This document shows positions 25 to 59,900 of a DNA stretch of 64,000 nucleotides, one piece after another. The stretch lies in assembly GCA_000002445.1 (NCBI GenBank), contig CP000070.1, positions 416,001 to 480,000 of the forward strand. Reading direction: 5' to 3'. The notes beneath the pieces are model-generated. The model searched no databases, was not told the origin of the DNA, and saw nothing but the letters and a program-made list of their open reading frames with translations. The translations under genes were made by a program, and so were the position numbers. Each line of letters opens with the position of its first letter. Within the stretch, counting starts at the first letter, position 1. Source of the stretch: Trypanosoma brucei (Eukaryota).

Positions 25-1647
25 TTGGTAATGAGTGAGTCAACGCCGAGCGGGTTGTGTCGCGGCGTACTGCTTGCCGCCGCGGAGGAATGTCAGCAGC
101 GTGCCGCGAAAGGTAATACATCCCCTGACGACTCATCTAACAGTAGGTGTGGTGGCACCGGTGGTTCAGACGTCGGTTTAAGACCTCAGCGCAGGGTCGT
201 TAACTTCCTGTACTCCAACACAATTCACGACCAGGGAGAGGAGGAAGTGGGCAAGGAAATCTGTGATCGCACAGAAGAAATTACGTTGGTGCGCATGGTT
301 GAGTGTATATGTTTAGGTACAAGCGCCGATGCTGTGTTCGGCGCCGAGATCACACTGGGTTGTGTGTGTGATGTTTTAGCCGTTGTAGCAACCATATCCT
401 TTGTTTGCTGGCGTTGGACTGTGTTACTTATACCAAAAGTCTTTTGCAAAGATGTCGTCACTGCCGTGTTTGCGCAGCACGCAACAATTGCAGATCGCCG
501 GAAGGCCGCTGAAGACTTACTGTTGCGCGGGGAGAGGCTCTTTTCAGTGTTAACGGCACTTCACGCGGCCGTAGATTCATCTTCAGATGACGTTTCCGCG
601 GCTGCTGAGGGCTCTCTTGCAGCTGCTATGGAAGCATCACGGCAGTACAGTAGTAATGTCGGATGCGAGGGTCGTTGTGTGGATGACGATCACGACGCCA
701 CTGGCAATACCGTTTCTTACAGTAGTGAGGACGAAGTACGTTCCACTTACCGTCGTCTGGCAGTGGAGGCGGAAAAGTGTCTTGAAACTCGGTCAACTGG
801 CTCCCTCGTAGTACATTTACTCGCGCTCTCCCGTATGGCGGAGGACGAAGCTAGCAAAAGGCGGAATGCACCGTCTCACTACAGTGACAAGTTAGTGGGT
901 GCTGTACAACCCGCATTACACGTACTCAGTCGTGTGTTAGCAGAGGTGGATGACGCATGCGCCGCCGTTGCCGCCATTAAAACCATGGTGTGGTGGGCCC
1001 TTGCACGGGCTGACTCGCCGGATTCGTCGTTTATTGGAAACCTCCTTATTTATCAATTGTCTCGTGACGTGCGCGGTAGGTCGTCGAAGTTCCCCTTGCA
1101 AGCATCAGTTGCTGCAACACCGGTCCAACTAGATCGAATGAAGGTTCGACTGCTTGATGTTTTGCTGGGTTTATGTGACTACGATACGGAGGGCCGCACA
1201 CTTCGAAACATCGATGACTACAGCCGGCAGATGTACGGTTACTCTCTGTACGATCTGTTGAGGGAGTTGTGTGGGCCAAGACACTCTGTGGCAGTGCAGG
1301 TGGCAGCATTGCACCTCGTTGGGCATTTTGTTATCGCGGTTGCGCCTCGTGTCTCTGTTGAATTGGCATGTGTACTCTGCAAAGACGTGTTTAGGCACAC
1401 GCCGCACGCTATGGCAAAAGCAGCTGCAGCCGCGATGTTAGTGTGTATTTCCTCTTCTCTGGAGGTATTTGGGGAGGGTAGTGTTGAACCGTTACTGCGT
1501 ATGGCTGATGCAATGCGAAATTATCGAGATGCCGCCGTGGAAAATACGGTGCATGAAGATGTGATTCGGAGGCACGGTGAGCGCATAAAGGGTCTGCTAG
1601 AAGAAAAACAATTCATGTTGCCAGTGCAGGAAATACGAGAGAGTTGA
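25..1647 (+). CDS. Hypothetical protein (540 aa; reading frame stays open to window start, so possibly 5'-partial)
   Basis: Long ORF in the same orientation as downstream genes. No stop between nt 1 and the first ATG at 25. I recognise no family motif. Confidence 0.5.
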   Translation: MVMSESTPSGLCRGVLLAAAEECQQRAAKGNTSPDDSSNSRCGGTGGSDVGLRPQRRVVNFLYSNTIHDQGEEEVGKEICDRTEEITLVRMVECICLGTSADAVFGAEITLGCVCDVLAVVATISFVCWRWTVLLIPKVFCKDVVTAVFAQHATIADRRKAAEDLLLRGERLFSVLTALHAAVDSSSDDVSAAAEGSLAAAMEASRQYSSNVGCEGRCVDDDHDATGNTVSYSSEDEVRSTYRRLAVEAEKCLETRSTGSLVVHLLALSRMAEDEASKRRNAPSHYSDKLVGAVQPALHVLSRVLAEVDDACAAVAAIKTMVWWALARADSPDSSFIGNLLIYQLSRDVRGRSSKFPLQASVAATPVQLDRMKVRLLDVLLGLCDYDTEGRTLRNIDDYSRQMYGYSLYDLLRELCGPRHSVAVQVAALHLVGHFVIAVAPRVSVELACVLCKDVFRHTPHAMAKAAAAAMLVCISSSLEVFGEGSVEPLLRMADAMRNYRDAAVENTVHEDVIRRHGERIKGLLEEKQFMLPVQEIRES

Positions 1648-5538: not shown

Positions 5539-6594
5539 ATGACAGAACCGAAGTTAGCAACCACGCACGTAGTGGGTGAACCCACCTTCGAAGGACTGGC
5601 ACGTTTCATTGAGCGAAACAACATCACCAAAATATTTGTTATGGTGGGCGCAGGGATAAGCGTTGCAGCTGGAATCCCCGACTTCCGCTCTCCCCACACC
5701 GGCTTGTACGCTAAACTCAGTCGCTACAATCTCAACTCACCGGAGGACGCCTTCTCACTCCCTCTCTTGCGTCAACAACCAAGTGTGTTTTACAACATTC
5801 TGATGGATATGGACCTCTGGCCCGGGAAGTATTGTCCTACGACGGTTCACCACTTTATCAGTCTACTCGCCAAGAAGGGCATGTTATTATGCTGTTGTAC
5901 GCAGAACATAGACGGGTTGGAACGCGCCTGCGGAATTCCAGAGTCTTTACTAGTTGAAGCCCATGGTTCCTTCTCTTCCGCATCATGTGTTGACTGTCAC
6001 GCGAAATATGACATCAACATGGCGAGGGCGGAGACAAGGGCTGGAAAAGTGCCTCATTGCAATCAATGTGGTGGTATAGTGAAACCCGACGTGGTTTTCT
6101 TTGGCGAGAATCTCCCGGAGGCGTTTTTTAACGTAGCGGGACTCATTGAGGAAACGGAATTGCTGCTTATTTTGGGAACCTCACTTCAAGTCCACCCATT
6201 TGCCGACCTTGCGCTCATGGTGCCCTCTGACGTGCCACGAGTGTTGTTTAACTTGGAGCGCGTGGGCGGGAGGATGTTCCGCTTTCCTACGGACCGAACA
6301 CCCAATTTCCGCGCCAGTTCCTATCGTCTCAGCACTGGAAATGGCAATGGCAGTAAAATTAGCAGTGGGGACAGCAGCAACAGCAGCAGCGTCGACGGGT
6401 ATGACCAGTTTACGCTCGCAGAGAATGACGAGACGGGCGTGTTGCGTGACATTTTCTTTCCTGGTGACTGTCAGGTGTCTGTTCGTTCCTTTGCCCAGGC
6501 GTTGGGCTTCGGAGAGCAGCTTGACGCCTCTGTACGTGAGGGAAGGGAAATATTTGAGCGCACTCGGCGTAGGGAAAAAGTCGTTGAGGGTTAA
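5539..6594 (+). CDS. SIR2rp1: NAD-dependent protein deacetylase, Sir2 family (sirtuin; 351 aa)
   Basis: Sirtuin signature 'GAGISVAAGIPDFRSP' is present. 'CTQNIDGLE' is present. Zn-binding Cys pairs are 'CVDCH...CNQCGG'. 'FFGE' and 'GTSLQV' motifs are present. Confidence 0.85.
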   Translation: MTEPKLATTHVVGEPTFEGLARFIERNNITKIFVMVGAGISVAAGIPDFRSPHTGLYAKLSRYNLNSPEDAFSLPLLRQQPSVFYNILMDMDLWPGKYCPTTVHHFISLLAKKGMLLCCCTQNIDGLERACGIPESLLVEAHGSFSSASCVDCHAKYDINMARAETRAGKVPHCNQCGGIVKPDVVFFGENLPEAFFNVAGLIEETELLLILGTSLQVHPFADLALMVPSDVPRVLFNLERVGGRMFRFPTDRTPNFRASSYRLSTGNGNGSKISSGDSSNSSSVDGYDQFTLAENDETGVLRDIFFPGDCQVSVRSFAQALGFGEQLDASVREGREIFERTRRREKVVEG

Positions 6595-6751: not shown

Positions 6752-8746
6752 TTGCTGGAAAGTGGTTGCGTTTATTTTCAGTTCTTTTATGGCACCGGAT
6801 GCTTTGGGGTAATGTACGTCGCCCCGCGTTCATGTTTCACATCATTCTCTCTCTCTCTCTCTTTGCTTCGTTGGGTGCAGCCGTCGTTAGCTGTCATGTG
6901 CCTTTGGCAACTTGCATTGCTGCCGTTTTGTATTGCGTTGCGTACTTCTCTTTTCCTTTTTGGGACTTCTGAGGCAAGCATTGCGCACATTGAAAGGGCG
7001 GAAAACAGTTCAAGTACTAGAAACATATCTATTCCAGGAACAACCTCCCCCCTCTTTTTCAGAAGGAGTGGAAAGGAAAGACAGTACATGAGGTACAGTG
7101 TTGTCAGAACGCGGCCGTCTCGCAGCCGCAGGCTGCGTCACTGTGTGCTAATTTCATTTCTAGCATTATTACTGATGATGCTTTCTTTGTCTATATCGTT
7201 CTACAACACCCGGAGAAGTGTCGACAGTCTAAAGATGAAACTGCGAGAAGATGCGGCAGGGAACCCACTACTGCGGGAGGGTGCCGCACAAACCGCTTGG
7301 AGCTTGTTGAACACAGAAAATGGTTCTTTATGGGGTTACGTTGGCGGTATTGACAGCCTTATAGAAAAAAGAGTTGACCGGGCGTACTGGGGACCAACCA
7401 TGTTCCGGAGCAACGAAGGAACCGTGAATGAATCCACGGTTACAAATGTTGTGTCTGAGCGGTTCCGCAACTTAAACATGAGCGAGGCTGAGATGAAGCG
7501 TAGGTACAAACGACATCAGCTGGTGAAGGAGGTCACAGGCTGTGATTCACTATCCGTACCGTTTAACCCTCTGCATGACAGCCGCTGTATTAACTTCATG
7601 ACCAACTCTTCTAATTGGTTGGATGTAGTTCCTATTGGACAAAATGTTGATCAACGTACCATCAAATTCAGGCTATTATTTAAGCCGCTACGTATAAATG
7701 CAAGCTATAGTGTCGAGTATCCCCTCGAAACTTTTGTTAAGGTACCACAGAAATACTTCGTGCTTGAGGCAGCAAGCGAGGTGGTTGCGTTCAATGTTGA
7801 CCGTCTTCTTCTTGTCAATCGCGTGCCGCCTACGGGGCTGGGTTGTCTCCCGCTTAACACGCTAAGAGGGTCTGTCAACAAGTATAAACATAATACGTCA
7901 ACGTTTAAAAAGTTTCTCCAGGATTCGAAAGCCGAAAATTACGAGCAGTGGATCGAAAAGGACCTCTTTCATTTCCTACGGCGGGCGAAGCATCATCTTC
8001 GCAAAAACGGTAACAACCAAACGTGTGTTCTGGTCTCCATCCAACTGAAGATTGCTGATGTGGTGCACTTTCTCGAAACGCCGATGCGAATCCCCTACCG
8101 TGTTTTTAGCGACACGTGGTTCGACTATTTCGACCTTAGGGCTAATGTAGGCGAGTTGGAGGATGGTTTGCCAACATTTGCACATGAACGTCACTACCCG
8201 GGTGTCCTTCACCTCGCAGCACTTGCGATGTTTGACTATGTCATAGGCAATATGGACCGATCACCTTTCAAGAATAACTTTGTGGTGGGCGGAGTGGCCA
8301 ACCAACTGGTTTCGGATAATACGACTCTTCTTCACCCAAACCACCCAACGTTTGTATATTTGGATCATGGTTCCTCATTTCGACTGCGACGACCCGAGCG
8401 AAACCCTATAGCGAAGTCTCATATTGGCTTTGAAAATGGAAAAGAGGACACTTTTTGTCTTTTCCGCGGTCCATTGCTGCGGCGTATTCAAGAACTTACC
8501 GGACCATCGGGAGAAGTTACACACGGAAATAAAGCGAAGGAAGAAGCCTATGGTGCCGCACACAATCATAGAAGTACGGAGACTTTGTTCACCCATATGT
8601 TAAGGGAGAGAGTTCCACCGGAGGTGTATTCCGTTATTGATAGCAGTAACTTGGATTTGGTTGTGGTTCGTATGAAAGAGCTGCTTGCCATGGCAGGGCG
8701 CTGTCTTTCCGATGAGCGTATACGCCGAACTGTACTATTTCCGTAA
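6752..8746 (+). CDS. Fam20/Four-jointed-like secretory-pathway kinase-like protein (longest ORF 664 aa; probable real start at 6896 or 7088, the latter preceding a signal-anchor helix)
   Basis: 'YVIGNMDRSPF' matches the Fam20 catalytic-loop 'GNMDRHHYE'. 'VYLDHGSSF' matches the Fam20/Fjx1 metal-binding 'LDNGRGF'. The N-terminal 'LISFLALLLMMLSLSISF' looks like a type-II membrane anchor. Confidence 0.5.
   Translation: MLESGCVYFQFFYGTGCFGVMYVAPRSCFTSFSLSLSLLRWVQPSLAVMCLWQLALLPFCIALRTSLFLFGTSEASIAHIERAENSSSTRNISIPGTTSPLFFRRSGKERQYMRYSVVRTRPSRSRRLRHCVLISFLALLLMMLSLSISFYNTRRSVDSLKMKLREDAAGNPLLREGAAQTAWSLLNTENGSLWGYVGGIDSLIEKRVDRAYWGPTMFRSNEGTVNESTVTNVVSERFRNLNMSEAEMKRRYKRHQLVKEVTGCDSLSVPFNPLHDSRCINFMTNSSNWLDVVPIGQNVDQRTIKFRLLFKPLRINASYSVEYPLETFVKVPQKYFVLEAASEVVAFNVDRLLLVNRVPPTGLGCLPLNTLRGSVNKYKHNTSTFKKFLQDSKAENYEQWIEKDLFHFLRRAKHHLRKNGNNQTCVLVSIQLKIADVVHFLETPMRIPYRVFSDTWFDYFDLRANVGELEDGLPTFAHERHYPGVLHLAALAMFDYVIGNMDRSPFKNNFVVGGVANQLVSDNTTLLHPNHPTFVYLDHGSSFRLRRPERNPIAKSHIGFENGKEDTFCLFRGPLLRRIQELTGPSGEVTHGNKAKEEAYGAAHNHRSTETLFTHMLRERVPPEVYSVIDSSNLDLVVVRMKELLAMAGRCLSDERIRRTVLFP
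6846..6863. repeat. (CT)n microsatellite
   Basis: tctctctctctctctctc read directly. It lies inside the 5' extension of the next ORF, which suggests that gene's true start is downstream of it. Confidence 0.9.
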
Positions 8747-9292: not shown

Positions 9293-9589
9293 CTGCAAGG
9301 ATAAAAGAAGGTGTAGGGTGGAAACAAAAAGGAACAGCTAAAAAAAGAAAAGGTGAATAATGCATAGAGTGAGACGAGGGGTGTCGGAGGAATCGCTAAG
9401 CTGGGTCCCTGCCACACGTTTCCTATATAACATTTATTTCACTGATACCGACTTTCCCCCTTACTCAGACTACATATGTCTGTTTTTTGTGTGCGTTTTC
9501 TATTTATTTATTTCCCCCTCTCTTTCCATTACAGCTTTACGGGTGAAGCACAAAAGAATAAGACGGGGATTTGCGTCACCGTCCAATTT

Positions 9590-9700
9590 TATTTATTTAT
9601 TTTTTTTGCCTTTCCGGTGATGCACCTCTAACGTATTTACCTTTTTTTTTCTTTTACTTTGTTTTGCTTCTTCCACTATTTCTCGTTAAAATCATCTCTT
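9590..9700 (+). promoter_or_regulatory. Long polypyrimidine tract, candidate splice-acceptor region upstream of pelota
   Basis: T/C-rich run 'atttatttattttttttgcctttccggtgatgcacctctaacgtatttaccttttttttt...'. It is translated only as a poly-Phe/Leu artefact in the longest ORF. Confidence 0.4.
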
Positions 9701-9708
9701 TCAGGGAG

Positions 9709-10926
9709 ATGCGCTTGTTGAAAAAGTCGGTGACAGCAGAAGGTGCTGTGGAGGTAAAGTTGCAAGTAAGTACCAGTGAAGATTTGTGGCATTTATATAA
9801 TTTGGTGCTTCCAGGAGACCAGGTACGCACGAACACAAGACGAAAGGTTGTGAAGGAAACTTCTATAGGATCACAGGCTGCGGAGGTGCGAACAATTACA
9901 TTACAGTTACAGGTACGCAACACAGAGTTCTCTCCTGATGAGCTACGCGTTCAGGGAGTTAACGTTAAGGAGAATGAATGCGTAAAGTTGGGTGCACATC
10001 ACACACTTTCAGTACACGCATTTCCACCGCAGGATGTTGTGATTTTGAAGGATGAGTGGAATGATGTATTCGCTGCACGTCTGAAGGAAGCGTGCGATAA
10101 TGAGTCGCGAGCAGACACAGTGGCAGTTTTGATGGACAGTGGTACTGCATCCGTTCTCCTGGTAACTCCTTCCTTCATGTACACAAAAGCAAAGATTGAG
10201 GTGTCCATAGCCAAGAAACATAAGAACGATGGAACCGCACGGGATAGGAGCATTCAGCGGTTCTTCAAACAAGTGTTGGACGCCCTCTGCATGCACGTAG
10301 ACTTTGATAAGGCTAAGTTGATCCTTATTTGCTCTCCGGCGCATGTGCGGGAGGAATTCAAAGCGTATGTAGAAGCCGCAATGGCTCATTCTGAGGCTAT
10401 GGCTATGCGCAACCTCCGCAAAAACTTTTCTAAGATAGTGTTAATAAAGGTGAGAGACAATACGAACGACGCCCTTCGTGAGGCGTTCGCGGATCCTAAC
10501 ATTGCAAATCAGATGGAATCTACACGATGCCGTGACGAGATAAAAGTGTGGCAGGACTTTCAGAAGACGATGGATGAGGATCCAGACCGCTGCGTATATA
10601 CGCCACAAATGGTTTACAGAGCGGCGATGTTAGGGGCTGTGGGAAAACTTATGGTGAGTGACGTTGTGTTTCGCTCTGAAGACCCCACAGTGCGTCGCTT
10701 TTACCTTTCACTCATTCGTTTTGTGCGGCAGGGCGGTGGTGGTGTTAGTGTTTTTTCTAGTAACCACGTCACTGGCGAGCAGTTAACGCAGTTGGGGTTT
10801 GTTGCAGCTATTCTTCATTTCCCCTGTGATGAACTTGATGATCTGGAGGTGGTGGAAAATTTTATCGACAGCGAGGAAGCCGCAACCTTCATTCGGGAAA
10901 ATGCTGCGGCAAGTGTAGTTGTGTAA
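9709..10926 (+). CDS. Pelota/Dom34 ribosome-rescue factor (405 aa from ATG at 9709; longest ORF starts at 9571 inside the pyrimidine tract)
   Basis: N-terminus 'MRLLKKSVTAEGAVEVKLQVSTSEDLWHLYNLVLPGDQVR' closely matches the Pelota N-domain 'MKL..K.......G.V.L.PEE.EDMWH.YNL...GD'. A downstream eRF1-like central/C domain pattern is present. Confidence 0.8.
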   Translation: MRLLKKSVTAEGAVEVKLQVSTSEDLWHLYNLVLPGDQVRTNTRRKVVKETSIGSQAAEVRTITLQLQVRNTEFSPDELRVQGVNVKENECVKLGAHHTLSVHAFPPQDVVILKDEWNDVFAARLKEACDNESRADTVAVLMDSGTASVLLVTPSFMYTKAKIEVSIAKKHKNDGTARDRSIQRFFKQVLDALCMHVDFDKAKLILICSPAHVREEFKAYVEAAMAHSEAMAMRNLRKNFSKIVLIKVRDNTNDALREAFADPNIANQMESTRCRDEIKVWQDFQKTMDEDPDRCVYTPQMVYRAAMLGAVGKLMVSDVVFRSEDPTVRRFYLSLIRFVRQGGGGVSVFSSNHVTGEQLTQLGFVAAILHFPCDELDDLEVVENFIDSEEAATFIRENAAASVVV

Positions 10927-12110: not shown

Positions 12111-13044
12111 CGGCGGCGCTGACGACGGTGCGTGTCTGTTTGTTGGTGTTGTTGTTGTTTGACGTATGCGACAAACGAATAACTGCAATAATCGTTTGTT
12201 TGTCAAGGATTCTGTCTGGTTCAAAATTACAAGGTCTTGGGCAACACGGTATATCAGTGGCTGATCAGCTGCGGCGCGGGGGTCCTCGTCATGTTGTTGT
12301 ATCCCCTGTTTCCTAGTTAACAGCCATCGTTGCTCACTTCACGTATCGTTTGCTGTAATTTCCAACCGGGGAGGAGTGTGTGGTGTTCCGTTAGTGGTGG
12401 TGGTCGATTTACCGGTGACTTTACCCAAACCGCTTCACATTTCGGCGTTTAGTCGGTTACGGGAAAACGTTACAGGATTTAGTGCTGTAAGATGAAGCAT
12501 CAGGGTCCTCAAGGATCCTGTAGGCACAGTCGTGATGGGCTTGCTGACCGTGTCTGTTTCGACACTGCTAAACGGCTGCCCTTACTGGGTCATTACCATG
12601 ACGTATTCCTTTTACTTGTTACAGATATATATCGTCTCAGTGAGGCTGTCACGGGGTTGTTAGTTGTAATGAGCAAGGCTTTGCGTTGGTTGATTTTTTT
12701 AGTGAGGAGTACGTGGCTTTATATATATATCTTTCATTCAGGTGATGCTTTGTCATCCTGCTTTCATCGCCAACGTTCGGTTCCTCTTTCTTTCCTTCAC
12801 TATTTTTACGCCTTGTTTCACCAGTCATACCACTTACGCATAGTTGTATTTCTCCCCAACATTATTCCCTTTCCCCCTGCTGTTACCTGTTCATCGACGA
12901 AACAGATTTCCTCCGTCTTTTTTTCCCCCTTACATGGAGGCTTTTACCGCTTTCAAGGCTGTTTTGGATCGTATTTGTTATTTGTACTGCTTTTTCCCTA
13001 TTCAATTTACTCCACTGTAGCACAGCGCGGTCCATTGATCACAT

Positions 13045-13773
13045 ATGCCCGCTAAAGCTGTTCCCGCCCCGGAGTCTGCGATCAAGCGCGCTGCCTTCAA
13101 GCAGCAGCAGACGGAGAACTTCAAGAAGGCGATCGCTGCGAACAAAGTGGCGGCGGCTGCCCTGAAGAAACTTGCGTACAGTCGTGGTCTCAAGTACTCT
13201 CGTGAGTACCGCTCCACCGAGAAGAAGCTTGCTGGCTTGCGTCGGAACGCGAGGCAGCACGGTAACTACTACCTTGAGGCAAAACCAAAGGTAGCTGTTG
13301 TCACCCGTATTCGCGGTATTGCGAAGGTGCCACCAAAGCAGCGCAAGATCCTGCAGCTTCTGAGGCTCCGTCAGATCTTCAATACTGTGTTCGTGCGGTT
13401 GAATAAACCAATGGAGAATATGCTCCGCGCAGTGGAGCCGTACATTGCGTATGGCTATCCGTCATTGAGTACGGTACGCGCGATGGTGTACAAGCGTGGG
13501 CACTTGAAGATCAACGGTCAGCGTGTGAAGATCACCGATAACCAGATGATTAAGGACAAGTACCACAACGATGATATCGTCTGTGCCGAAGACATTGTTA
13601 ACCAGATCTACGCCTGCGGTAAGCACTTCCGGACTGTGACGAATGGTTTGTGGCCCTTCAAGCTTGCGCCCCCTGCTGGTGGCATGCGGCAAAAGCGCCG
13701 TCACTTCGTCGAGGGTGGTGATTACGGCAACCGTGACACATTGATCAACCGCTTCCTCGCGCGTATGATCTAA
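13045..13773 (+). CDS. RPL7: 60S ribosomal protein L7 (uL30), copy 1
   Basis: 'KVPPKQRKILQLLRLRQIFNTVFVRLNKPMENMLRAVEPYIAYGYPSL...INGQRV' is the hallmark uL30/L7 eukaryotic sequence. 242 aa. Confidence 0.9.
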   Translation: MPAKAVPAPESAIKRAAFKQQQTENFKKAIAANKVAAAALKKLAYSRGLKYSREYRSTEKKLAGLRRNARQHGNYYLEAKPKVAVVTRIRGIAKVPPKQRKILQLLRLRQIFNTVFVRLNKPMENMLRAVEPYIAYGYPSLSTVRAMVYKRGHLKINGQRVKITDNQMIKDKYHNDDIVCAEDIVNQIYACGKHFRTVTNGLWPFKLAPPAGGMRQKRRHFVEGGDYGNRDTLINRFLARMI

Positions 13774-14057
13774 ACTCAGCGGCGACGGTGGAGCACTGTG
13801 CATTATTACTTTGAAATAGTATTTTGTTTTTCGTTTGATGTGGGTGTGTTGTGTGTACTATTTTTCCACGGCTACCTATTCATCTTTCTCGGTTCTACTT
13901 AGGTGGAGCTTTAAATTTCACTTCAATAAAAAATCTCTCCTGCGTACTTTACGAAAGTTTTGTTACCAACAGAACACGAGTATCTAATTTTCTCCGTTCT
14001 GCCTTTACTTTAATGTTTATGACGGGACTCATACTGTTAGGAAAAGGTAGAGAAGTT

Positions 14058-14786
14058 ATGCCCGCTAAAGCTGTTCCCGCCCCGGAGTCTGCGATCAAGC
14101 GCGCTGCCTTCAAGCAGCAGCAGACGGAGAACTTCAAGAAGGCGATCGCTGCGAACAAAGTGGCGGCGGCTGCCCTGAAGAAACTTGCGTACAGTCGTGG
14201 TCTCAAGTACTCTCGTGAGTACCGCTCCACCGAGAAGAAGCTTGCTGGCTTGCGTCGGAACGCGAGGCAGCACGGTAACTACTACCTTGAGGCAAAACCA
14301 AAGGTAGCTGTTGTCACCCGTATTCGCGGTATTGCGAAGGTGCCACCAAAGCAGCGCAAGATCCTGCAGCTTCTGAGGCTCCGTCAGATCTTCAATACTG
14401 TGTTCGTGCGGTTGAATAAACCAATGGAGAATATGCTCCGCGCAGTGGAGCCGTACATTGCGTATGGCTATCCGTCATTGAGTACGGTACGCGCGATGGT
14501 GTACAAGCGTGGGCACTTGAAGATCAACGGTCAGCGTGTGAAGATCACCGATAACCAGATGATTAAGGACAAGTACCACAACGATGATATCGTCTGTGCC
14601 GAAGACATTGTTAACCAGATCTACGCCTGCGGTAAGCACTTCCGGACTGTGACGAATGGTTTGTGGCCCTTCAAGCTTGCGCCCCCTGCTGGTGGCATGC
14701 GGCAAAAGCGCCGTCACTTCGTCGAGGGTGGTGATTACGGCAACCGTGACACATTGATCAACCGCTTCCTCGCGCGTATGATCTAA
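14058..14786 (+). CDS. RPL7: 60S ribosomal protein L7 (uL30), copy 2
   Basis: Protein identical to copy 1. The longest ORF (13851..14786) has a 69-aa extension that is translated 3'UTR/intergenic sequence. The ATG at 14058 corresponds to the copy-1 start. Confidence 0.9.
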   Translation: MPAKAVPAPESAIKRAAFKQQQTENFKKAIAANKVAAAALKKLAYSRGLKYSREYRSTEKKLAGLRRNARQHGNYYLEAKPKVAVVTRIRGIAKVPPKQRKILQLLRLRQIFNTVFVRLNKPMENMLRAVEPYIAYGYPSLSTVRAMVYKRGHLKINGQRVKITDNQMIKDKYHNDDIVCAEDIVNQIYACGKHFRTVTNGLWPFKLAPPAGGMRQKRRHFVEGGDYGNRDTLINRFLARMI

Positions 14787-15070
14787 ACTCAGCGGCGACG
14801 GTGGAGCACTGTGCATTATTACTTTGAAATAGTATTTTGTTTTTCGTTTGATGTGGGTGTGTTGTGTGTACTATTTTTCCACGGCTACCTATTCATCTTT
14901 CTCGGTTCTACTTAGGTGGAGCTTTAAATTTCACTTCAATAAAAAATCTCTCCTGCGTACTTTACGAAAGTTTTGTTACCAACAGAACACGAGTATCTAA
15001 TTTTCTCCGTTCTGCCTTTACTTTAATGTTTATGACGGGACTCATACTGTTAGGAAAAGGTAGAGAAGTT

Positions 15071-15799
15071 ATGCCCGCTAAAGCTGTTCCCGCCCCGGAG
15101 TCTGCGATCAAGCGCGCTGCCTTCAAGCAGCAGCAGACGGAGAACTTCAAGAAGGCGATCGCTGCGAACAAAGTGGCGGCGGCTGCCCTGAAGAAACTTG
15201 CGTACAGTCGTGGTCTCAAGTACTCTCGTGAGTACCGCTCCACCGAGAAGAAGCTTGCTGGCTTGCGTCGGAACGCGAGGCAGCACGGTAACTACTACCT
15301 TGAGGCAAAACCAAAGGTAGCTGTTGTCACCCGTATTCGCGGTATTGCGAAGGTGCCACCAAAGCAGCGCAAGATCCTGCAGCTTCTGAGGCTCCGTCAG
15401 ATCTTCAATACTGTGTTCGTGCGGTTGAATAAACCAATGGAGAATATGCTCCGCGCAGTGGAGCCGTACATTGCGTATGGCTATCCGTCATTGAGTACGG
15501 TACGCGCGATGGTGTACAAGCGTGGGCACTTGAAGATCAACGGTCAGCGTGTGAAGATCACCGATAACCAGATGATTAAGGACAAGTACCACAACGATGA
15601 TATCGTCTGTGCCGAAGACATTGTTAACCAGATCTACGCCTGCGGTAAGCACTTCCGGACTGTGACGAATGGTTTGTGGCCCTTCAAGCTTGCGCCCCCT
15701 GCTGGTGGCATGCGGCAAAAGCGCCGTCACTTCGTCGAGGGTGGTGATTACGGCAACCGTGACACATTGATCAACCGCTTCCTCGCGCGTATGATCTAA
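15071..15799 (+). CDS. RPL7: 60S ribosomal protein L7 (uL30), copy 3
   Basis: Protein identical to copies 1 and 2. The downstream sequence diverges 7 nt after the stop. Confidence 0.9.
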   Translation: MPAKAVPAPESAIKRAAFKQQQTENFKKAIAANKVAAAALKKLAYSRGLKYSREYRSTEKKLAGLRRNARQHGNYYLEAKPKVAVVTRIRGIAKVPPKQRKILQLLRLRQIFNTVFVRLNKPMENMLRAVEPYIAYGYPSLSTVRAMVYKRGHLKINGQRVKITDNQMIKDKYHNDDIVCAEDIVNQIYACGKHFRTVTNGLWPFKLAPPAGGMRQKRRHFVEGGDYGNRDTLINRFLARMI

Positions 15800-16871
15800 A
15801 CTCTGTGGCGACAACTTCTTGAGGAAAACCTTTCCATCCTATTTAGTTTTCCTTTCTGATTTTTTGTGTTTGTTGATTTTACTATTTTTTACTGCCTGTT
15901 GAGGCTGCTTGCGTTCACTGTTTCCCAACCACTGCTGGCAGTTTGCTTTGTCATGTGGTGGTGGGGGGAAGGTGCTAGTTACTCGTCTCATCGGGTGATA
16001 TTTGTTTTGCCTATGATATTTGTATCTATGCTCTTTTCCCTAATTGTTCTTTTTTTTTTTTTGTATTCTAAAATGGGTCTTAGTTGTGTTTACCAGGTTG
16101 TCCATATCGTTTAGTACAAGTGGGTGCGGAGGTACTGTGTTTACTTATTAGCGGGACATTTCATGAAACGGAAAGAAGGCAATTGGAGGGTGAATGTCGT
16201 TGGGTTCTACGTGAGGGCACGGGCAGTCGTGGTTTAAACATTTTTTGTGGTCGCTGTGCAATCCCGATTCACGACATTCCTCACCACTATGATTAACTTG
16301 TAATGAAGTACTTCGTTGCAATGAGGGGGTGAAGGGTAGGTGAAGGGTATGTACTTTCACTAAGTTTCTAGCGGGGCAAACGGAAGGCGGTGTCTGCGAT
16401 CAGCCAACGGGATCTTGCGTGTGTTACAACTGAAAGTGCGCCATCCTGTGTATCTTGCGATAGGGCGGTGACGGTTATTGGTTCCCTTTGATTTTCAGTT
16501 CAAGCCATCACCAGTCACGCCTTGCGCCACAGTGCCTACGGCATTTGGTGTGTTGTTAAATTACAGGATTATTGGTTCCCCGCTCGTTATATCAGCAATG
16601 AATGCAGGAGAATGGGAGAAAGGGTCGAAGACAATGTTTTTTGTTTTCAACACAAGGGAGGAGACTCAGTATTAGGTGGTATACTTTCTTCATACGCCAA
16701 ATCTGTTCTAGACGTACGAGAGTGAGTTTGTCTCTCTTTCATTTACTTCATCGCTTCCCCACCCATTCAACTTCCTCCCCCGTTTTACCTACAACCGGGT
16801 GAGGAAGAAAAAATTGTAAAAGGTCTCCATTGTCATATAGCAGGAACTAAAACGTTTCCATTTCAGCAAAG

Positions 16872-18089
16872 GTGATGGAGCATCTAATCGCTGCGAGGCC
16901 GCTGCCACCTGCCATAGGAAGGGGCGATAAAATCGAAGGAGCAAAAGCACCTGAAAGAATGAAAACGTCCATAAGAGACAAATTAGCTGCCGTGCAAAGC
17001 ATGCGTACCAACGAGCTGCAGGAGGCCCTTGCACGAGAAAAGCAACTGTCATACGTTATATGTGAGTTGAAGAAACGCTCGGGGGAAATGGAGGTATCGC
17101 GGGAAACGGAGCGAGAAATAAACGCGCAGAAGTCCTTTTATATTATTAAGGAAAACGAGTGCCTGAAGAAGCAGGTTCAGTTGCTGGAGAGGGAACTTGC
17201 TGACGCAAGGCGGAGGTACGAGAGGGAACTCTTGCGGCTGCAAACAGCGCTGAATAATACGCAGGAGATGCTTGTAACGGATAGGCAGATATCGAAGAAG
17301 CGAGAAGGTGAGAGGGAGGAAGCCGTTCAACGTTTAGTGACGAACCTTCGCCTCATGCAAGCAGAGATTGTGCATTACGAATCGGAGAATAAACGGTTGG
17401 AGGCCACGAAGCAGGCGCTGAGTGAGTCGAAAGCCGAATGTGAATCGGTGAGAGCGGAGTGCTCCCTATGGAAAGAAATCTGTCAGCATCAGCAGTGGTT
17501 TCTTTTGAATGAGCGGGAGGAATTTGTAGATGCTCTTCGTGTTCATGAATTGGAGGAGAAACAACTGTGGGAAGGTACCACTTGCGCAGCGGCTAAGGTG
17601 ATGGCCGGATATGCGAAGTCTGTAACTGAGCGTATGGAAAGCGAAGTTGACATCTGTTTTAAGTTAAAAATGCTTATGCTGAAGGATGTGGTGTCCACCA
17701 TGAAAGCAGAGCAACTCGAGGAGCAGCGAAAGTTGGCGGCTGAGGAACTGAAAGAGCTGAGGGAGAAGCGTATGGCACTGATGAAGCTATTTGACAACTA
17801 CCAGCTGCAAATAGAACAAAATCAGAGGGAGAACTGCGAGAGTTTAGCACTGCTGAAGTCAGTTGATGATGCCACAATGGCGTATGTCTTGAAGCAAAGG
17901 GATCAAGAGGTGGTAGATAAAATATGTCTATGGAAGGGTGCATATTTAGAGGGTGATAAACTTTTACGGGCACTACTCAAGCGCTATCAACCGTTCCAGC
18001 GGGGAGACGAGAAGTTTGTCTCCCATGTCATTGGATACTTGAACAAAGGGCCGCATGTGCAAGAACCACTTGATATATGGCTTGATTAG
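16872..18089 (+). CDS. Coiled-coil hypothetical protein (405 aa)
   Basis: Heptad-like E/K/R/L/Q-rich sequence throughout, e.g. 'LKKQVQLLERELADARRRYERELLRLQTALNNTQEM'. A long ORF in the sense orientation of the cluster. A pyrimidine tract lies upstream at 16725-16800. Confidence 0.6.
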   Translation: MMEHLIAARPLPPAIGRGDKIEGAKAPERMKTSIRDKLAAVQSMRTNELQEALAREKQLSYVICELKKRSGEMEVSRETEREINAQKSFYIIKENECLKKQVQLLERELADARRRYERELLRLQTALNNTQEMLVTDRQISKKREGEREEAVQRLVTNLRLMQAEIVHYESENKRLEATKQALSESKAECESVRAECSLWKEICQHQQWFLLNEREEFVDALRVHELEEKQLWEGTTCAAAKVMAGYAKSVTERMESEVDICFKLKMLMLKDVVSTMKAEQLEEQRKLAAEELKELREKRMALMKLFDNYQLQIEQNQRENCESLALLKSVDDATMAYVLKQRDQEVVDKICLWKGAYLEGDKLLRALLKRYQPFQRGDEKFVSHVIGYLNKGPHVQEPLDIWLD

Positions 18090-25252: not shown

Positions 25253-25499
25253 TGCAGAACACACATACTGTGTAACAACAACTTTTATTTTACTTACAAA
25301 AAAAACTCACATTCCCTACTCTGCAAGGAACGAAAAAAAATACCATAATTTTCAACGACAATTAAACGTCACCGTCAAACTGTTTTACCAAACCGCAATG
25401 CACTCTTGTAAACGAACACACAGGTAGGCTAGGCGAGGTTTTTCACAAAAGGAATATATATATATATATATAAGGCTACGCCTAAATCCCTTTGACCTC

Positions 25500-26507
25500 A
25501 TGGGTTGCCAACGTATGGGGACCTATCCCATTGCGGGTGTGGAAGATGTGCGCCGTGCTGTCGTTTTGGAGGTGAACGATTTTTGTATTTCCGTGAAGCT
25601 GCCTCCTGCAAGTGAATTAAGGAAAGATTCCCGGTATGGCATTAACCTTGATGCCCAGGTTGTCGGTTTCAATGCAAGGCGCGTTCGCGACGAATATGAG
25701 CTTGCCTTTCGTATGTATCTTACTGGAAACGATCTTGAGAAGTACGCCCGGAGGTGCACGGTTGGGTACCTTTTTCTTCCATCCGGGGAGGAGCATTACC
25801 TCGGCCCGCTGATATTTGGTAGTGACTCGGTGTGCTCGGCCATGCTTGTGGGGGAAGTGCCATCAAATGTAGAGGTGTGCTTTGAGTGCCTTTCTCTTCC
25901 CAGAGGTATGACGGCTCTGATGCCTGCCTGCTTTCGCCTTGCAGAGATCATGGCGACCATTCTTGATGCTGACGTGCACAATGCATCAGTGGCCTCCTCG
26001 CATATGCAAAACTTGGTGAAACTGTTCCCTTCTTATGGTGACTGCATGATGCAGTTTGATAACTGGACCAAATTTGTGGAGTGCGCGGAAGCTCAACTGG
26101 GACTGTGGTGCACAAGAAGATACACCGAAGACGAAATCAAAAAATATGGATTTCGTAATGTTGCACATTATGAGGAGCCACGTCTTGTCTCAAAACGATT
26201 TATTTACGACTATGTTGATGGGGATGTTGGGAAAGATGCGTTGCATCATGAAAAGTTTGAGGAGTTGAAGAAGCTTGTTGCCGCTGCATTGAACTCTTGC
26301 ACTGACTGCCGGCGTCCTTCTCATCTGTGTAAGAAACACCTCACGGAGATATCAAGCATGCCTTGCGTTCTCCAGCTGAATCCCCCAAACTACTTGGCAC
26401 CCGTGACTGCTGAGGGAATCGTCTGGAGGATTGTTCTCCAAGACCCCCTCCATCCCCTCCGTGTTGTCTGGGAACGCAAAGTCACGCGGGTTCCAGATTT
26501 TCGCTAA
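25500..26507 (+). CDS. Hypothetical protein (335 aa; starts MGC..., a Gly2/Cys3 N-terminus), duplication copy A
   Basis: Long ORF, duplicated identically at 31061. A Cys-rich C-terminal region ('CTDCRRPSHLCKKH') is present. No known family recognised. Confidence 0.55.
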   Translation: MGCQRMGTYPIAGVEDVRRAVVLEVNDFCISVKLPPASELRKDSRYGINLDAQVVGFNARRVRDEYELAFRMYLTGNDLEKYARRCTVGYLFLPSGEEHYLGPLIFGSDSVCSAMLVGEVPSNVEVCFECLSLPRGMTALMPACFRLAEIMATILDADVHNASVASSHMQNLVKLFPSYGDCMMQFDNWTKFVECAEAQLGLWCTRRYTEDEIKKYGFRNVAHYEEPRLVSKRFIYDYVDGDVGKDALHHEKFEELKKLVAAALNSCTDCRRPSHLCKKHLTEISSMPCVLQLNPPNYLAPVTAEGIVWRIVLQDPLHPLRVVWERKVTRVPDFR

Positions 26508-27270
26508 TCCCAAATGCTTCCGTACGGCATTCATTATTTTACACCATCATGTAAGCTGTCAGGCAGCAATAGGGTCCTTAACACAATACATTTCCCTCCT
26601 CTTTCGCGTTTGACTTTCAATTCCTCAATGTTTTTGGTTGTCGCTGTTCTGTTTTTAACATTTTGCATGACTAATGTCTTTTGTTCATGTTTGTTCGTTT
26701 CCCTCTACGTCTGCTTTTGATGTTCCGTTATTTTACTTTTACGTTTGCTTTTTTTTCTTTACTGTTTGCTCCACCCCGTACTCCTTACGATTGGTAACAT
26801 CCTGATTCAAATGTCGGCTGCAGGTGATAGGGGAGCGAGCTTATGAAGACGTGGAAGTACTGCTTCTCCGTCATTTTCCCATCTTTTGTGTTTCAGCTCT
26901 TGTATGCGCCACCGAAGCACATTGTTAGATGCTACACATGTGCATGTAGAAGGACTTCCTTTTACGCACCTTTCTTTTTCTTTTCCATAATTATACTTTT
27001 GTGCTGTCTCCTACTGCTTTTCTTACCTTATGTATTTTTTTTACTCTTTGGTTACACACTCGTTACTTATCTTTTCCTTATATCCTTCCTAACATTATGG
27101 TGCTCCCATGGTTTTCCTCTTCTTTCCTGTGCGGTGGGCCCAGTTGCTGCGTCTATCCACTGCATTGCTGACCACTATCCACTCTCCCGTGCACTTATTA
27201 TGTTGTTTTCTCTTTTTTACTTTACTGAGCGCAACCGAATTGTGGGGGACATAGTAGAAGGCAAGACCAC

Positions 27271-27576
27271 TTGACCGCCCTAAGTGCGATGCCTGGGCGA
27301 AGAGGGAAGCAGCGTGTGAAGCGGAAGAAGTCGAAACGTCAGAGGCCTTCCGGGATGGAGCGTGTGCTTATTGAAAGCATACACGTGCGGAAGCATAAGG
27401 AGCGTGACATTCTGAAGCATCACATCCCCCCTTCAGTAAAACCGAGAGTGAAGAAAGTGTCGTTGGATGCGACATTGCCCATGTTTAATGCCATCTCTAA
27501 AAACGCCAACCGGAGTACCTCTTCAGTGACCATGGCGAAGGGAACCAAATCGAACGGTACTGTGGTAGGATGCTGA
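27271..27576 (+). CDS. Small basic hypothetical protein (101 aa), duplication copy A
   Basis: ORF in the sense orientation between larger genes. Lys/Arg-rich ('RRGKQRVKRKKSKRQRP'). Could equally be non-coding. Confidence 0.25.
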   Translation: MTALSAMPGRRGKQRVKRKKSKRQRPSGMERVLIESIHVRKHKERDILKHHIPPSVKPRVKKVSLDATLPMFNAISKNANRSTSSVTMAKGTKSNGTVVGC

Positions 27577-28220
27577 AGTTCCAACTGTTAGTGCACATGC
27601 GCGCTGTGTGGTAAACCCCTGCAAACTATTATACGCGGTTGCGTTGGGAGTACGACTCGTGCATGCGTGTGTGTAATTATTGGGGCTAGTGCTTTGAGAC
27701 GTACTATTGACAGGGCACCTTTACTGTGGAGATGTGCGAGGTGGACGTAATGTAGGTAAGGGTTATCGAGGTGTACCTCATCACTGTGATGCCTCTGTCA
27801 ACAGGTCCCTGCGTTCGTGGCCGCGTGGTGTATGAGTTGCTTCCTACTGTGTCGTGGGGAACTGTGAGCCACACCCTCTGAATTCTCAGCGTGTCCTCTG
27901 CACCTTTATTACGCCTGGGTGGGCCAGCTCTCTCTTCCCCCCGGGTCATGCATGGTGATATCTCTCCTGGCTCCGCATCCACTGTTAGTAGATGGTGGCG
28001 CCTTTAACGTTTGTATACTTCAGTGGTTCTCCTGTTTCAGCGCTTGGTACCGTCCTCCAGTTTCCCAGGAGTGAAGCCCACTATGGGTGTGCCACTGATT
28101 CGTGTCTTTTCTCTCTTTTCTGTCTCGCAACACTTTTGTGTAGTTAGCCCGCCACACTTGACCTTTGTTGAGGAAGGGGAGTGGGGGAACGAACCCACAG
28201 CGGATTAGACGAGACAACGG

Positions 28221-29321
28221 ATGAGTAGAGATGCGACACCCTACGAGGGCGAGGGTGATGATGACGATTATGACGGGGCAATGAGGTGTATTCTCGTGGA
28301 AAAGATACGGCGACACCGTGCTCTCGAGCGTGAGGGAAGCGTTAGGGTTATAACACGGAAAGGTGTACCACCCCCGACACTAGGGGAGCTGCGCGCGATA
28401 GCTGACAGGCGGTCGAGACATGAAGACCTGTTGAGGTTGCAGCGGCGTCTGGATGGGGTAGAGAGACGGATGGGGTTGTGGCGTGACTATCTTTCCTACG
28501 AGCCCCCACCCTTTATGTCCTCCAGCGTTCCTGCTAACGCTTCTGAGACTGGAATCCTTGAGGGACGCGCAGCACTTCTTTCACCACTTTCCACACTGTT
28601 TCGCATTTTGCTCCGCGAGAATCGCGCGCGCGAAAGGCTACGGTTGCTGCGAGCGCGGCCCCCCCTCCCCAAGTCGCAAACGCCATCGCTAGCTAGTGCT
28701 CGACGGATGTCATTGGAGGTGGCTCGTTTTGTGGGAGACGATATATTTGTTCCCCCTGGGGATGGGTGCCGTTCTGCAATAACTTCCGAGCAGTTGCTTG
28801 TAACACCCGCGTATGAGGTCGAACGCCTTCGAAACCCGCTGGTGTTCTTGGCTCGCGAGTACCGTATGGAGCGACTCCCTGAATTCTCACTAAACCCAGC
28901 AAAGTCTCCGGATACTGGTCACAGCTCTGTGGTGAGGAAGGATTGCGGTGCCTCGTCTGCAGTCACATTATCAGACTTCCGCCAGCCACCTGTGATGTTA
29001 GAGGCATTTAATATACCTTGCGGCATTTACGATGTGGGTCGTAGAGTCCACCTCATTCAGGGGTATGAGCCGCTGTACAGCAGTGATGGGCTTGGGTCTC
29101 TTGACTCTCTTAGTAAGGCCGTGAAGTGTAGGCGGGATGGACCGCAACGGGGCGATACTGCCTTCATTGACGGGCGGCTGTCTCAAAGTTTGTGGTGTTC
29201 TGGGACTCCAGCGAAACTACGAGGGCCGCTCCAGGAGGACTCGCTAAGCGGAAGCGACGACGACGAGGTCTCCCCAGCCTTCTGCGCGGATGTCTCATGG
29301 CTTCCCAAGTTCCCCGAGTAA
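28221..29321 (+). CDS. Hypothetical protein (366 aa; acidic N-terminus, Arg-rich helices), duplication copy A
   Basis: Long sense ORF, identical protein in copy B. No motif recognised. Confidence 0.55.
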   Translation: MSRDATPYEGEGDDDDYDGAMRCILVEKIRRHRALEREGSVRVITRKGVPPPTLGELRAIADRRSRHEDLLRLQRRLDGVERRMGLWRDYLSYEPPPFMSSSVPANASETGILEGRAALLSPLSTLFRILLRENRARERLRLLRARPPLPKSQTPSLASARRMSLEVARFVGDDIFVPPGDGCRSAITSEQLLVTPAYEVERLRNPLVFLAREYRMERLPEFSLNPAKSPDTGHSSVVRKDCGASSAVTLSDFRQPPVMLEAFNIPCGIYDVGRRVHLIQGYEPLYSSDGLGSLDSLSKAVKCRRDGPQRGDTAFIDGRLSQSLWCSGTPAKLRGPLQEDSLSGSDDDEVSPAFCADVSWLPKFPE

Positions 29322-29616
29322 CAAGATTGCGATAGTGAGGGAATAGTAGAGGATATTCTCTTACTGTGCACTGGGTGTATCATTCTGTCACCCGATGTAA
29401 TGTAATATATGGCGCAAAAGAATGTGCTTTTTGGTGAAGTGGATGCCTCCGGCACTGTTTCATTCGAATGGCTGCGTTTATTTTCTGTGTTGTCACTGCT
29501 CCGCCAACCTCTTGCACGCATCTGAGAACCCACTTGTTGATGCCTCTTTTCCCTTTACTTTTGTGTGCTCCCACCCTACGACCCCGTGTCACGTGACGCA
29601 GTTTTCACCGCCGACG

Positions 29617-54268: not shown

Positions 54269-54307
<39 letters not shown>

Positions 54308-59853: not shown

Positions 59854-59900
<47 letters not shown>

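What the first reader, a model, noticed from the sequence alone, without database searches (positions are those of the whole stretch)
6752..8746. Fam20 / Four-jointed-like secretory kinase-like protein in a kinetoplastid
The ORF contains 'GNMDRSPF', matching the Fam20C catalytic-loop GNMDRHHYE. It contains 'YLDHGSSF', matching the Mn-binding LDNG motif. It has an N-terminal signal-anchor. Golgi-type atypical kinases of this family are characterised in metazoa. A homologue with both motifs conserved in a trypanosome would be worth functional study. Candidate roles include phosphorylation of secreted or surface proteins and glycan kinase activity.
Basis: partly seen in the sequence, partly recalled or inferred. 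Interest (0 to 1): 0.5.

Follow-up and report, generated by a model that had tools for sequence, protein, structure and literature searches.

The report
Trypanosome Fam20-like secretory-pathway kinase
This Trypanosoma brucei gene, annotated only as a 'hypothetical protein', encodes a membrane-anchored relative of the animal Golgi kinases Fam20B/C with all catalytic residues intact, and it belongs to an undescribed family found in trypanosomes, diplonemids and euglenids, so it is a concrete candidate for phosphorylation inside the parasite's secretory pathway.

Summary
The ORF is T. brucei TREU927 'hypothetical protein, conserved' (by gene order Tb927.7.1700, between SIR2rp1 and DOM34). The conserved CDS is probably 7088..8746 (552 aa), not the mechanical ORF from 6752.

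The single sequence gives no Pfam hit. Profiles do:
- A 9-sequence kinetoplastid profile hits only Fam20A/B/C in the PDB (best E 1.2e-5).
- A 111-sequence family profile hits them at E 1e-20 to 1e-23, and PI4KII at 4e-7.

Both ATP-binding lysines, both αC glutamates, the catalytic Asp and the metal-binding Asp map onto Fam20C K271/K285/E306/E311/D458/D478. They are (nearly) invariant across the family.

An N-terminal signal anchor with an Arg-rich tail and conserved Cys pairs predict a lumenal, type II enzyme.

It is not a Fam20A/B/C orthologue:
- the catalytic loop is DRSPxKNN;
- the Kβ3-Kα3 loop is 12 residues shorter;
- only one of the four Fam20 disulfides is kept;
- the Fam20B sugar ligands are absent.

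All named members are Euglenozoa, and none is Leishmania. Substrate, activity and localisation are untested.

The parts
7088..8746 (+). Most likely true CDS (552 aa plus stop) of the Fam20-like kinase, by gene order Tb927.7.1700. The mechanical ORF runs 6752..8746 and the TREU927 annotation 6812..8746.
   Evidence: Orthologue alignment starts here. T. equiperdum and T. b. equiperdum models are 552 aa. A polypyrimidine tract plus AG lies at about 7045-7062.
6812..7087 (+). Annotated N-terminal extension, probably 5' UTR / trans-splicing region. It contains a (CT)n tract that translates as SLSLSL.
   Evidence: It has no counterpart in any orthologue. Its start differs between TREU927 and gambiense, and it shows 3 substitutions in about 85 aa against 7 in 552 aa for the core. 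This is an inference, not proven.
7088..7144 (+). Short Arg-rich cytoplasmic tail (MRYSVVRTRPSRSRRLRHC).
   Evidence: 6 K/R and 0 D/E in the 15 residues before the TM segment. By the positive-inside rule the N-terminus is cytosolic (inference).
7145..7201 (+). Single transmembrane signal-anchor (VLISFLALLLMMLSLSISF).
   Evidence: KD19 = 2.52 and it is the only segment >=1.6. Translation. 80 of 93 full-length family members have an equivalent N-terminal hydrophobic segment.
7202..7519 (+). Stem (low pLDDT about residues 40-70) plus an N-terminal helical/strand segment that precedes the kinase core.
   Evidence: AF2 pLDDT blocks are 57-61 for residues 41-70 and >84 from residue 71 on.
7541..7588 (+). 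Family-specific Cys pair C152...C167 (GCDxxxVPFxPxxDxxC), a presumed lumenal disulfide.
   Evidence: C152 is Cys in 103/111 members and C167 in 105/111. That they form a disulfide is inferred.
7655..7669 (+). RTIKF: the Gly-loop/β2 lysine K193, equivalent to Fam20C K271 (GTQLK). R190 and T191 take the positions of the Fam20B sugar ligands T114/Q115.
   Evidence: hhalign of the N-lobes gave Prob 94%, E 2e-8. K193 is Lys in 110/111, R190 in 108/111, T191 in 107/111. Ligand identities come from PMC5865150.
7730..7750 (+). TFVKVPQ: the β3 lysine K218, equivalent to Fam20C K285 (FKP).
   Evidence: hhalign. K218 is Lys in 110/111 and Q221 is Gln in 109/111.
7766..7837 (+). αC region EAASEVVAFNVDRLLLVNRVPPTG. 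E227 corresponds to Fam20C E306 (ion-pair/metal Glu) and E231 to E311 (canonical αC Glu). This is the most Fam20-like stretch (AEIAAFHLDRILDFRRVPP).
   Evidence: E231 is invariant and E227 is E in 108/111 and D in 3/111. Translation.
8231..8293 (+). Catalytic loop FDYVIGNMDRSPFKNNFVVGG. D390 corresponds to Fam20C D458 (catalytic base). N396 is an invariant Asn that aligns with the Glu of Fam20 DRHHYE.
   Evidence: D383, N388, D390, R391 and N396 are invariant in 111 sequences.
8357..8380 (+). YLDHGSSF: the DFG-equivalent, with D426 corresponding to Fam20C D478 (metal binding).
   Evidence: D426 and G428 are invariant.
8456..8704 (+). C457 (FCLFR) ... C539 (RCL). They align with the Fam20 QCC...DC cysteines (hmFam20 C341-C400) and are the one Fam20 disulfide retained.
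   Evidence: HMM alignment. C457 is Cys in 107/111 and C539 in 108/111. The Fam20 disulfide list comes from PMC5865150.

Best explanation
The gene encodes a type II membrane protein. It has a short Arg-rich cytosolic tail, one signal-anchor helix, a flexible stem and a lumenal catalytic domain of about 400 residues. That domain is a divergent member of the Fam20 (Golgi casein kinase / xylosylkinase) superfamily. Proposed mechanism: ATP and divalent metal are held by K193 and K218 (Fam20C K271 and K285), E227/E231 (E306/E311), N396 and D426 (D478). D390 (D458) acts as the catalytic base and transfers the γ-phosphate to a hydroxyl on a protein or glycan passing through the Golgi or late secretory pathway. 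It represents a separate, euglenozoan-wide clade with its own substrate-binding residues, so its substrate is expected to differ from both S-x-E proteins and Gal-Xyl. Shown here: homology, fold, conservation of catalytic residues, the N-terminal hydrophobic anchor and the taxonomic spread. Inferred: lumenal orientation, Golgi residence, activity and the nature of the substrate.
Confidence: 0.75

Rival explanations
1. It is a PI4K type II-like lipid kinase anchored by its N-terminal helix, with the catalytic domain facing the cytosol and phosphorylating phosphoinositides.
Confidence: 0.05
2. It is a catalytically dead pseudokinase or scaffold, like Fam20A, that regulates another enzyme.
For: The Fam20 superfamily contains a pseudokinase (Fam20A) and members with no demonstrated activity (FAM198A/B; PMC7948968). 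Activity was not tested here.
Against: Fam20A is inactive partly because Gln replaces the Glu equivalent to E306 (PMC5865150; PMC5413348). Here that position (E227) is acidic in 111/111 members. Both Lys, the catalytic Asp, the Asn and the DFG-Asp are (nearly) invariant. T. brucei has only one copy, so there is no paralogous active partner.
Confidence: 0.08
3. It is a true Fam20B orthologue, a Gal-Xyl xylosylkinase acting on a proteoglycan-type linker.
Against: The margin over Fam20C structures is small (22.2 versus 20.8 and 20.5). The Gal-Xyl ligands T114, Q115, H301 and K321 are not conserved: they are R190, T191, S392 and S429, and R190/T191 are themselves near-invariant in this family. From my own knowledge (not tested here), T. 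brucei has not been found to make UDP-xylose.
Confidence: 0.04
4. The motif matches are coincidental and the ORF is an unrelated hypothetical protein.
For: There is no Pfam hit for the single sequence. The motifs are short.
Against: Profile E-values reach 1e-23 and are specific to Fam20. The alignment is collinear over about 290 residues. A high-confidence model has the Fam20 fold. The protein is conserved in many species.
Confidence: 0.01

Closest known systems
Fam20C (Golgi casein kinase; human FAM20C, zebrafish Fam20C1, C. elegans Fam20/FAMK-1)
   Different: Identity is only about 15-18%. The catalytic loop is DRSPxKNN rather than DRHHYE. The Kβ3-Kα3 loop, the core of the Fam20C dimer interface (PMC5865150), is 12 residues shorter. 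Three of the four Fam20 disulfides are absent. The N-lobe insertion is predicted helical. It is membrane-anchored by an uncleaved-looking signal anchor. There is no evidence for S-x-E specificity.
Fam20B / hydra Fam20 (glycosaminoglycan xylosylkinase)
   Different: The Gal-Xyl-binding residues are not conserved, and a K/R at DFG+3 is absent in the T. brucei protein (S429).
Fam20A (secretory pseudokinase)
   Same: Highest-scoring PDB hit for the single sequence and the small profile. Same fold.
   Different: Fam20A has Gln at the E306-equivalent position and binds ATP inverted without metal (PMC5413348). This protein keeps the acidic residue and every other catalytic residue.
PI4K type IIα/β
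   Different: PI4KII is a cytosolic, palmitoylated lipid kinase without a signal anchor or lumenal disulfides (own knowledge). Its sequence and fold scores are much weaker than those of Fam20.
HipA / CtkA / actin-fragmin kinase / CotH (more distant atypical kinases of the same fold group)
   Different: They are much more distant, with no sequence-level signal apart from one weak HipA_C Pfam hit. Their cellular contexts differ.

Membership tests
Fam20 superfamily (Pfam PF06702-type Golgi kinases) | Significant profile-level sequence similarity to Fam20 kinase domains | tested here: met
   Profiles against the PDB: 1.2e-5 (9 sequences) and 1.8e-23 (111 sequences), with Fam20 chains as the only or top hits. 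N-lobe hhalign Prob 94%, E 2e-8.
Fam20 superfamily (Pfam PF06702-type Golgi kinases) | The protein itself passes the Pfam PF06702 gathering score (26.8 bits) | tested here: not met
   No Pfam hit for the T. brucei protein even at E<=1. Among relatives, 40/87 hit at E<=0.01, and P0077 and P0090 just pass at 28.7 and 28.9 bits.
Fam20 superfamily (Pfam PF06702-type Golgi kinases) | Fam20-type atypical kinase fold | tested here: met
Fam20 superfamily (Pfam PF06702-type Golgi kinases) | Catalytic residues: two Lys (K271, K285), Glu (E306), catalytic Asp (D458), metal-binding Asp (D478) | tested here: met
   K193, K218, E227, D390 and D426 align to them and are invariant or near-invariant.
Fam20 superfamily (Pfam PF06702-type Golgi kinases) | Entry into the secretory pathway (signal peptide or signal anchor) | tested here: met
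   Hydropathy only: a single N-terminal TM-like segment after a basic tail, and 80/93 relatives likewise. No dedicated signal-peptide predictor was available.
Fam20 superfamily (Pfam PF06702-type Golgi kinases) | Golgi/lumenal localisation and Mn-dependent kinase activity | not testable with these tools
   Needs tagging/imaging and enzymology.
Fam20A/B/C proper (animal clade) | Four conserved disulfides (hmFam20 C207-C222, C212-C215, C267-C340, C341-C400) | tested here: not met
   Only C457...C539 aligns with the C341-C400 pair. The other conserved Cys (C152, C167) lie in a different region. Disulfide list from PMC5865150.
Fam20A/B/C proper (animal clade) | GNMDRHHYE catalytic loop and the long Kβ3-Kα3 loop | tested here: not met
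   The loop is GNxDRSPNKNN, with an invariant Asn where Fam20 has Glu. K(β3) to Glu is 9 residues, against 21 in Fam20.
Fam20B xylosylkinase | Gal-Xyl-binding residues T114, Q115, H301, K321 (hmFam20 numbering) | tested here: not met
   The aligned residues are R190, T191, S392 and S429. The other ligands (Y148-Y151, Y214, Y253) lie in regions that do not align.
PI4K type II | Best similarity to PI4KII; cytosolic, membrane-associated lipid kinase | tested here: not met
CotH kinases | Closest fold or sequence match is CotH (PF08757) | tested here: not met

The most novel reading that the evidence does not exclude
Fam20-type lumenal kinases are not an animal invention. An ancient, catalytically intact sister clade exists across Euglenozoa, and its single trypanosome member is the so-far unidentified secretory-pathway kinase that phosphorylates surface or secreted molecules. 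In T. brucei the best-known candidate substrate is GPEET procyclin, which is phosphorylated on six of seven threonines during transport to the surface (Mehlert 1999 and Bütikofer 1999, as cited in PMC8591177). That the kinase is still unknown is my own understanding. The gene's apparent absence from Leishmania would then reflect a lineage-specific difference in surface-coat biosynthesis.
Probability: 0.12. Interest if true: 0.8.

Novelty: new variant of a known kind. Interest (0 to 1): 0.55.

Why it matters
The reviews I could read describe Fam20 kinases as an animal family, 'from sponge to mammals' (PMC7948968; PMC5865150). A Leishmania kinome review states that FAM20C is not present (PMC8066228). 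The gene is absent from the kinome-wide RNAi screen supplements I could search, and no paper in the library mentions its presumed ID.

An intact Fam20-like enzyme conserved in all Trypanosoma examined, diplonemids and euglenids has three consequences:
1. It pushes this secretory-kinase lineage outside animals. A 2026 preprint lists FAM20B among possible Myxococcota contributions to eukaryotic endomembrane functions.
2. It adds an unlisted atypical kinase to the trypanosome kinome.
3. It makes lumenal phosphorylation in trypanosomes, whether of protein or glycan, testable by knockout and phosphoproteomics or glycomics.

Because it is divergent from the host enzymes and single-copy, it could also be a selective target if it proves essential.

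Tried and rejected
- Single-sequence Pfam gave no hit, and single-sequence phmmer against the PDB was only suggestive (E 0.11).
- The N-lobe-only HMM against the PDB aligned only the αC helix. The lysines had to be mapped by profile-profile alignment against Fam20 sequences recovered.
- A second homologous-protein search with the 111-sequence alignment returned essentially the same nine proteins, plus a T. congolense fragment, so it was of little use.
- The afdb50 fold library was unavailable, so taxonomic spread could not be read from AlphaFold DB. It was pieced together from cluster look-ups instead, many of which were unnamed metagenome or SRA contigs.
- Literature searches for the gene ID and for Fam20 with kinetoplastid, Trypanosoma or euglenid terms found no description of this family.
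- The downstream partial ORF in L001 and the upstream ORF in L002 gave no Pfam hit. Only the SIR2 side of the synteny is supported.

Full report
**What is at the coordinates.**
The window is Trypanosoma brucei TREU927 chromosome sequence. The ORF product is 100% identical to the NCBI entry 'hypothetical protein, conserved [T. b. brucei TREU927]' on a 2.2-Mb contig. The ORF at 6752..8746 (+) is real. It lies between a SIR2-family gene (5539..6594) and an eRF1-fold gene (9571..10926). Tb927.7.1710 is DOM34. Tb927.7.1690 appears in trypanosome silencing and sirtuin papers, and from my own knowledge it is SIR2rp1. The gene is therefore Tb927.7.1700 by order, which is an inference.

The listed start at 6752 is a TTG under the bacterial code. 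The TREU927 annotation uses ATG 6812 (644 aa). All orthologues (523-544 aa) align from MRYSVV..., which is ATG 7088. The T. equiperdum and T. b. equiperdum gene models are exactly this 552-aa form. The upstream 'extension' contains a (CT)n tract, and a polypyrimidine run plus AG ends about 25 nt before 7088. I therefore treat 7088..8746 as the likely CDS. This is inferred, and spliced-leader mapping would settle it.

**The motifs are real and not chance.**
FDYVIGNMDRSPFKNNFVVGG (8231..8293) and YLDHGSSF (8357..8380) are present.
- The single sequence gives no Pfam hit and only E 0.11 to FAM20A in the PDB. Even so, it already shows two collinear segments, αC and the catalytic loop.
- A profile of nine sequences (eight Trypanosoma species including the query, plus two unnamed sequences P0008/P0009) finds six PDB sequences at E<=10, and all are Fam20 proteins: FAM20A 1.2e-5, FAM20C 1.7e-4, zebrafish Fam20C1 5e-4, C. 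elegans Fam20 2.6e-3, Fam20B 5.4e-3.
- An exhaustive HMM search of 1.84 billion cluster representatives found 158 relatives (82 at E<=1e-30).
- A 111-sequence alignment of these scores Fam20C at 1.8e-23 / 3.8e-23, ceFam20 at 1.3e-22, Fam20B at 5.3e-21 and Fam20A at about 2e-20. The alignment runs from the αC helix to the C-terminus. PI4K type II follows at about 4e-7.
- Of 87 members scanned individually, 40 hit Pfam PF06702 (Fam20C) at E<=0.01 (best 1.6e-9). Eight hit PI3_PI4_kinase and two hit FAM198. Two members tested individually just pass the PF06702 gathering score.

**Fold.**
- then PI4KIIα 15.6, CtkA 13.5, HipA-like 11.7, actin-fragmin kinase 11.0 and CotH 9.3.

The first 28 Foldseek hits are all Fam20 chains (E 4e-8 to 2e-5). 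The protein thus sits in the Fam20 / PI4KII / HipA / AFK / CotH group of atypical kinases and is closest to Fam20.

**Catalytic machinery.**
I recovered true Fam20 N-lobe sequences from the PDB alignments and aligned them profile-to-profile with the family N-lobe (hhalign Prob 94%, E 2e-8). This gives the following map, in 552-aa numbering:

| This protein | Motif | Fam20C equivalent |
|---|---|---|
| K193 | RTIKF | K271 (GTQLK) |
| K218 | FVKVPQ | K285 (FKP) |
| E227 | | E306 |
| E231 | | E311 |
| D390 | | D458 |
| D426 | | D478 |

The last two rows come from the C-lobe HMM alignment. The human residue numbers for K285, E306, E311 and D458 come from my own offset calculation, anchored on my recollection that the catalytic Asp is D458; only K271 and D478 are stated in a paper I read.

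[quoted passage not shown] PMC5865150 states that the Glu equivalent to ceFam20 E213 is essential, that it is Gln in the pseudokinase Fam20A, and that the DRH Asp is the catalytic base.

Across 111 family members E231, D383, N388, D390, R391, N396, D426 and G428 are invariant. K193 and K218 are Lys in 110, and E227 is E in 108 and D in 3. This pattern is that of an active phosphotransferase, not a pseudokinase.

**Topology.**
The 552-aa protein has one hydrophobic segment (residues 20-38, KD19 2.52). It follows a tail with 6 K/R and no acidic residue in 15 positions. 80 of 93 full-length relatives have an equivalent N-terminal segment, with a median start at residue 12. Four cysteines are near-invariant: C152, C167, C457 and C539. 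C457 and C539 align with the Fam20 'QCC...DC' cysteines, which form the C341-C400 disulfide in hydra Fam20. There are eight N-x-S/T sequons in the T. brucei protein. I infer a type II membrane protein with a lumenal catalytic domain on a flexible stem (pLDDT 57-61 for residues 41-70). This is the architecture of Golgi glycosyltransferases and of Fam20/Fjx1. There is no KDEL-like C-terminus, and the family ends in a conserved VLFP/VIAP.

**How it differs from Fam20A/B/C.**
1. The catalytic loop is GNxDRSPNKNN. An invariant Asn (N396) sits where Fam20 has the Glu of DRHHYE. In this respect it resembles PI4KII and canonical kinases.
2. The β3-Lys to Glu spacing is 9 residues, against 21 in Fam20. 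The Kβ3-Kα3 loop, which forms the heart of the Fam20A-Fam20C and Fam20C-Fam20C interface, is largely missing. Fam20-style dimer regulation is therefore unlikely (inference).
3. Only one of the four Fam20 disulfides is kept. A family-specific pair lies N-terminal of the core. A 'GGC...C' pair present in 84/111 members has been lost in Trypanosoma.
4. The Gal-Xyl ligands of Fam20B (T114, Q115, H301, K321) correspond to R190, T191, S392 and S429. R190 and T191 are themselves near-invariant here, which suggests a different, family-specific substrate contact.
5. The region between β4 and β5 is predicted helical (H256-299).

I therefore file it in the Fam20 superfamily as a new clade, not as a Fam20A, B or C orthologue.

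**Distribution.**
Every member for which a source gives an organism is euglenozoan:
- Trypanosoma: T. brucei/gambiense/equiperdum, T. vivax, T. congolense (fragment), T. cruzi, T. rangeli, T. grayi, T. theileri, T. melophagium and T. conorhini;
- diplonemids: Rhynchopus humris, Namystynia karyoxenos and Diplonema papillatum;
- euglenids: Euglena gracilis and Entosiphon sulcatum (two paralogues).

The twelve best-scoring clusters were all looked up, and none is from Leishmania or another named Leishmaniinae. The unnamed ones come only from Logan, ENA and JGI assemblies. This agrees with a review's statement that FAM20C is not present in Leishmania. It does not prove loss, because no eukaryotic genome collection could be searched. 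One unnamed relative (P0008, 36% identical) lies directly downstream of a SIR2 gene that is 46% identical to the T. brucei neighbour, so local gene order is conserved.

**Function.**
What can be said with reasonable confidence is that this is a lumenal, ATP- and metal-dependent phosphotransferase of the secretory pathway. Whether the acceptor is a protein or a glycan cannot be decided from these data.
- A xylosylkinase role is disfavoured by the missing ligands. From my own knowledge, it is also disfavoured by the lack of UDP-Xyl in T. brucei.
- A speculative but testable candidate in T. brucei is GPEET procyclin. [quoted passage not shown] To my knowledge its kinase has not been identified.
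- Because the family is also present in species without GPEET, any such role would be one instance of a broader function.

**Prior knowledge.**
Full-text searches found no paper naming the gene or describing Fam20-like kinases in kinetoplastids or euglenozoans. It does not appear in the supplements of the kinome-wide RNAi screen that I could search. Fam20 reviews treat the family as animal-specific. There are hints that automated pipelines have seen the relationship. One is a KEGG K20825/FAM20B label on a diplonemid transcript. Another is a 2026 preprint listing FAM20B among possible Myxococcota contributions to eukaryotic endomembrane functions.

**Verdict.**
The finding is a correct and useful annotation of a 'conserved hypothetical' gene. 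It is a new variant of a known enzyme kind and is moderately surprising to specialists. It makes lumenal phosphorylation in trypanosomes experimentally approachable.

Noticed in passing
window 6812..7087: The TREU927 (644 aa) and gambiense (649 aa) gene models carry an N-terminal extension that no orthologue has. It runs through a (CT)n tract. The conserved start is ATG 7088, as in the 552-aa T. equiperdum models, so the reference start codon is probably mis-annotated.
   Followed up: partly
L001 776..3497 (Logan SRR7249135): A distant relative (P0008, 36% identity) lies immediately downstream of a SIR2 gene that is 46% identical to the T. brucei neighbour. The SIR2-then-Fam20-like gene order is therefore conserved in an unidentified kinetoplastid-like organism with very short intergenic regions.
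   Followed up: partly
window 8291..8338 (residues 402-417) compared with family alignment A2: 84 of 111 family members have a Cys pair (GGCxxxC) just after the catalytic loop. All Trypanosoma members, including T. vivax, lack both cysteines, which looks like a genus-level loss of a probable disulfide.
   Followed up: partly
window 13044..16082: Three perfect tandem copies of a 1013-bp unit. Two of them contain complete 311-aa ORFs with ribosomal protein L30p/L7e domains (a tandem RPL7 array).
   Followed up: partly
window 25391..36500: A tandem duplication with 5561-bp spacing. Each copy carries three ORFs (335, 366 and 358 aa). The 358-aa one has a FYVE zinc finger, and the other two have no Pfam hit.
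   Followed up: partly
window 48000..64000: There is a sharp composition change: GC falls from about 0.49 to 0.31-0.40 and GC skew turns negative. It coincides with a switch to the minus strand and three 686-690-aa ORFs. The one scanned (49663..51735) is a retrotransposon hot spot (RHS) protein. This looks like a convergent strand-switch / RHS cluster.
   Followed up: partly
window 45662..46993: A GDA1/CD39-family nucleoside phosphatase (apyrase) gene lies in the same directional gene cluster. Such enzymes hydrolyse nucleoside di/triphosphates in the Golgi lumen or at the cell surface. No functional link to the kinase was tested, and trypanosome polycistrons are not operons.
   Followed up: no
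window 25..1647 and 16872..18089: Two long ORFs (540 and 405 aa) have no Pfam hit at E<=0.001. They were not examined further.
   Followed up: no
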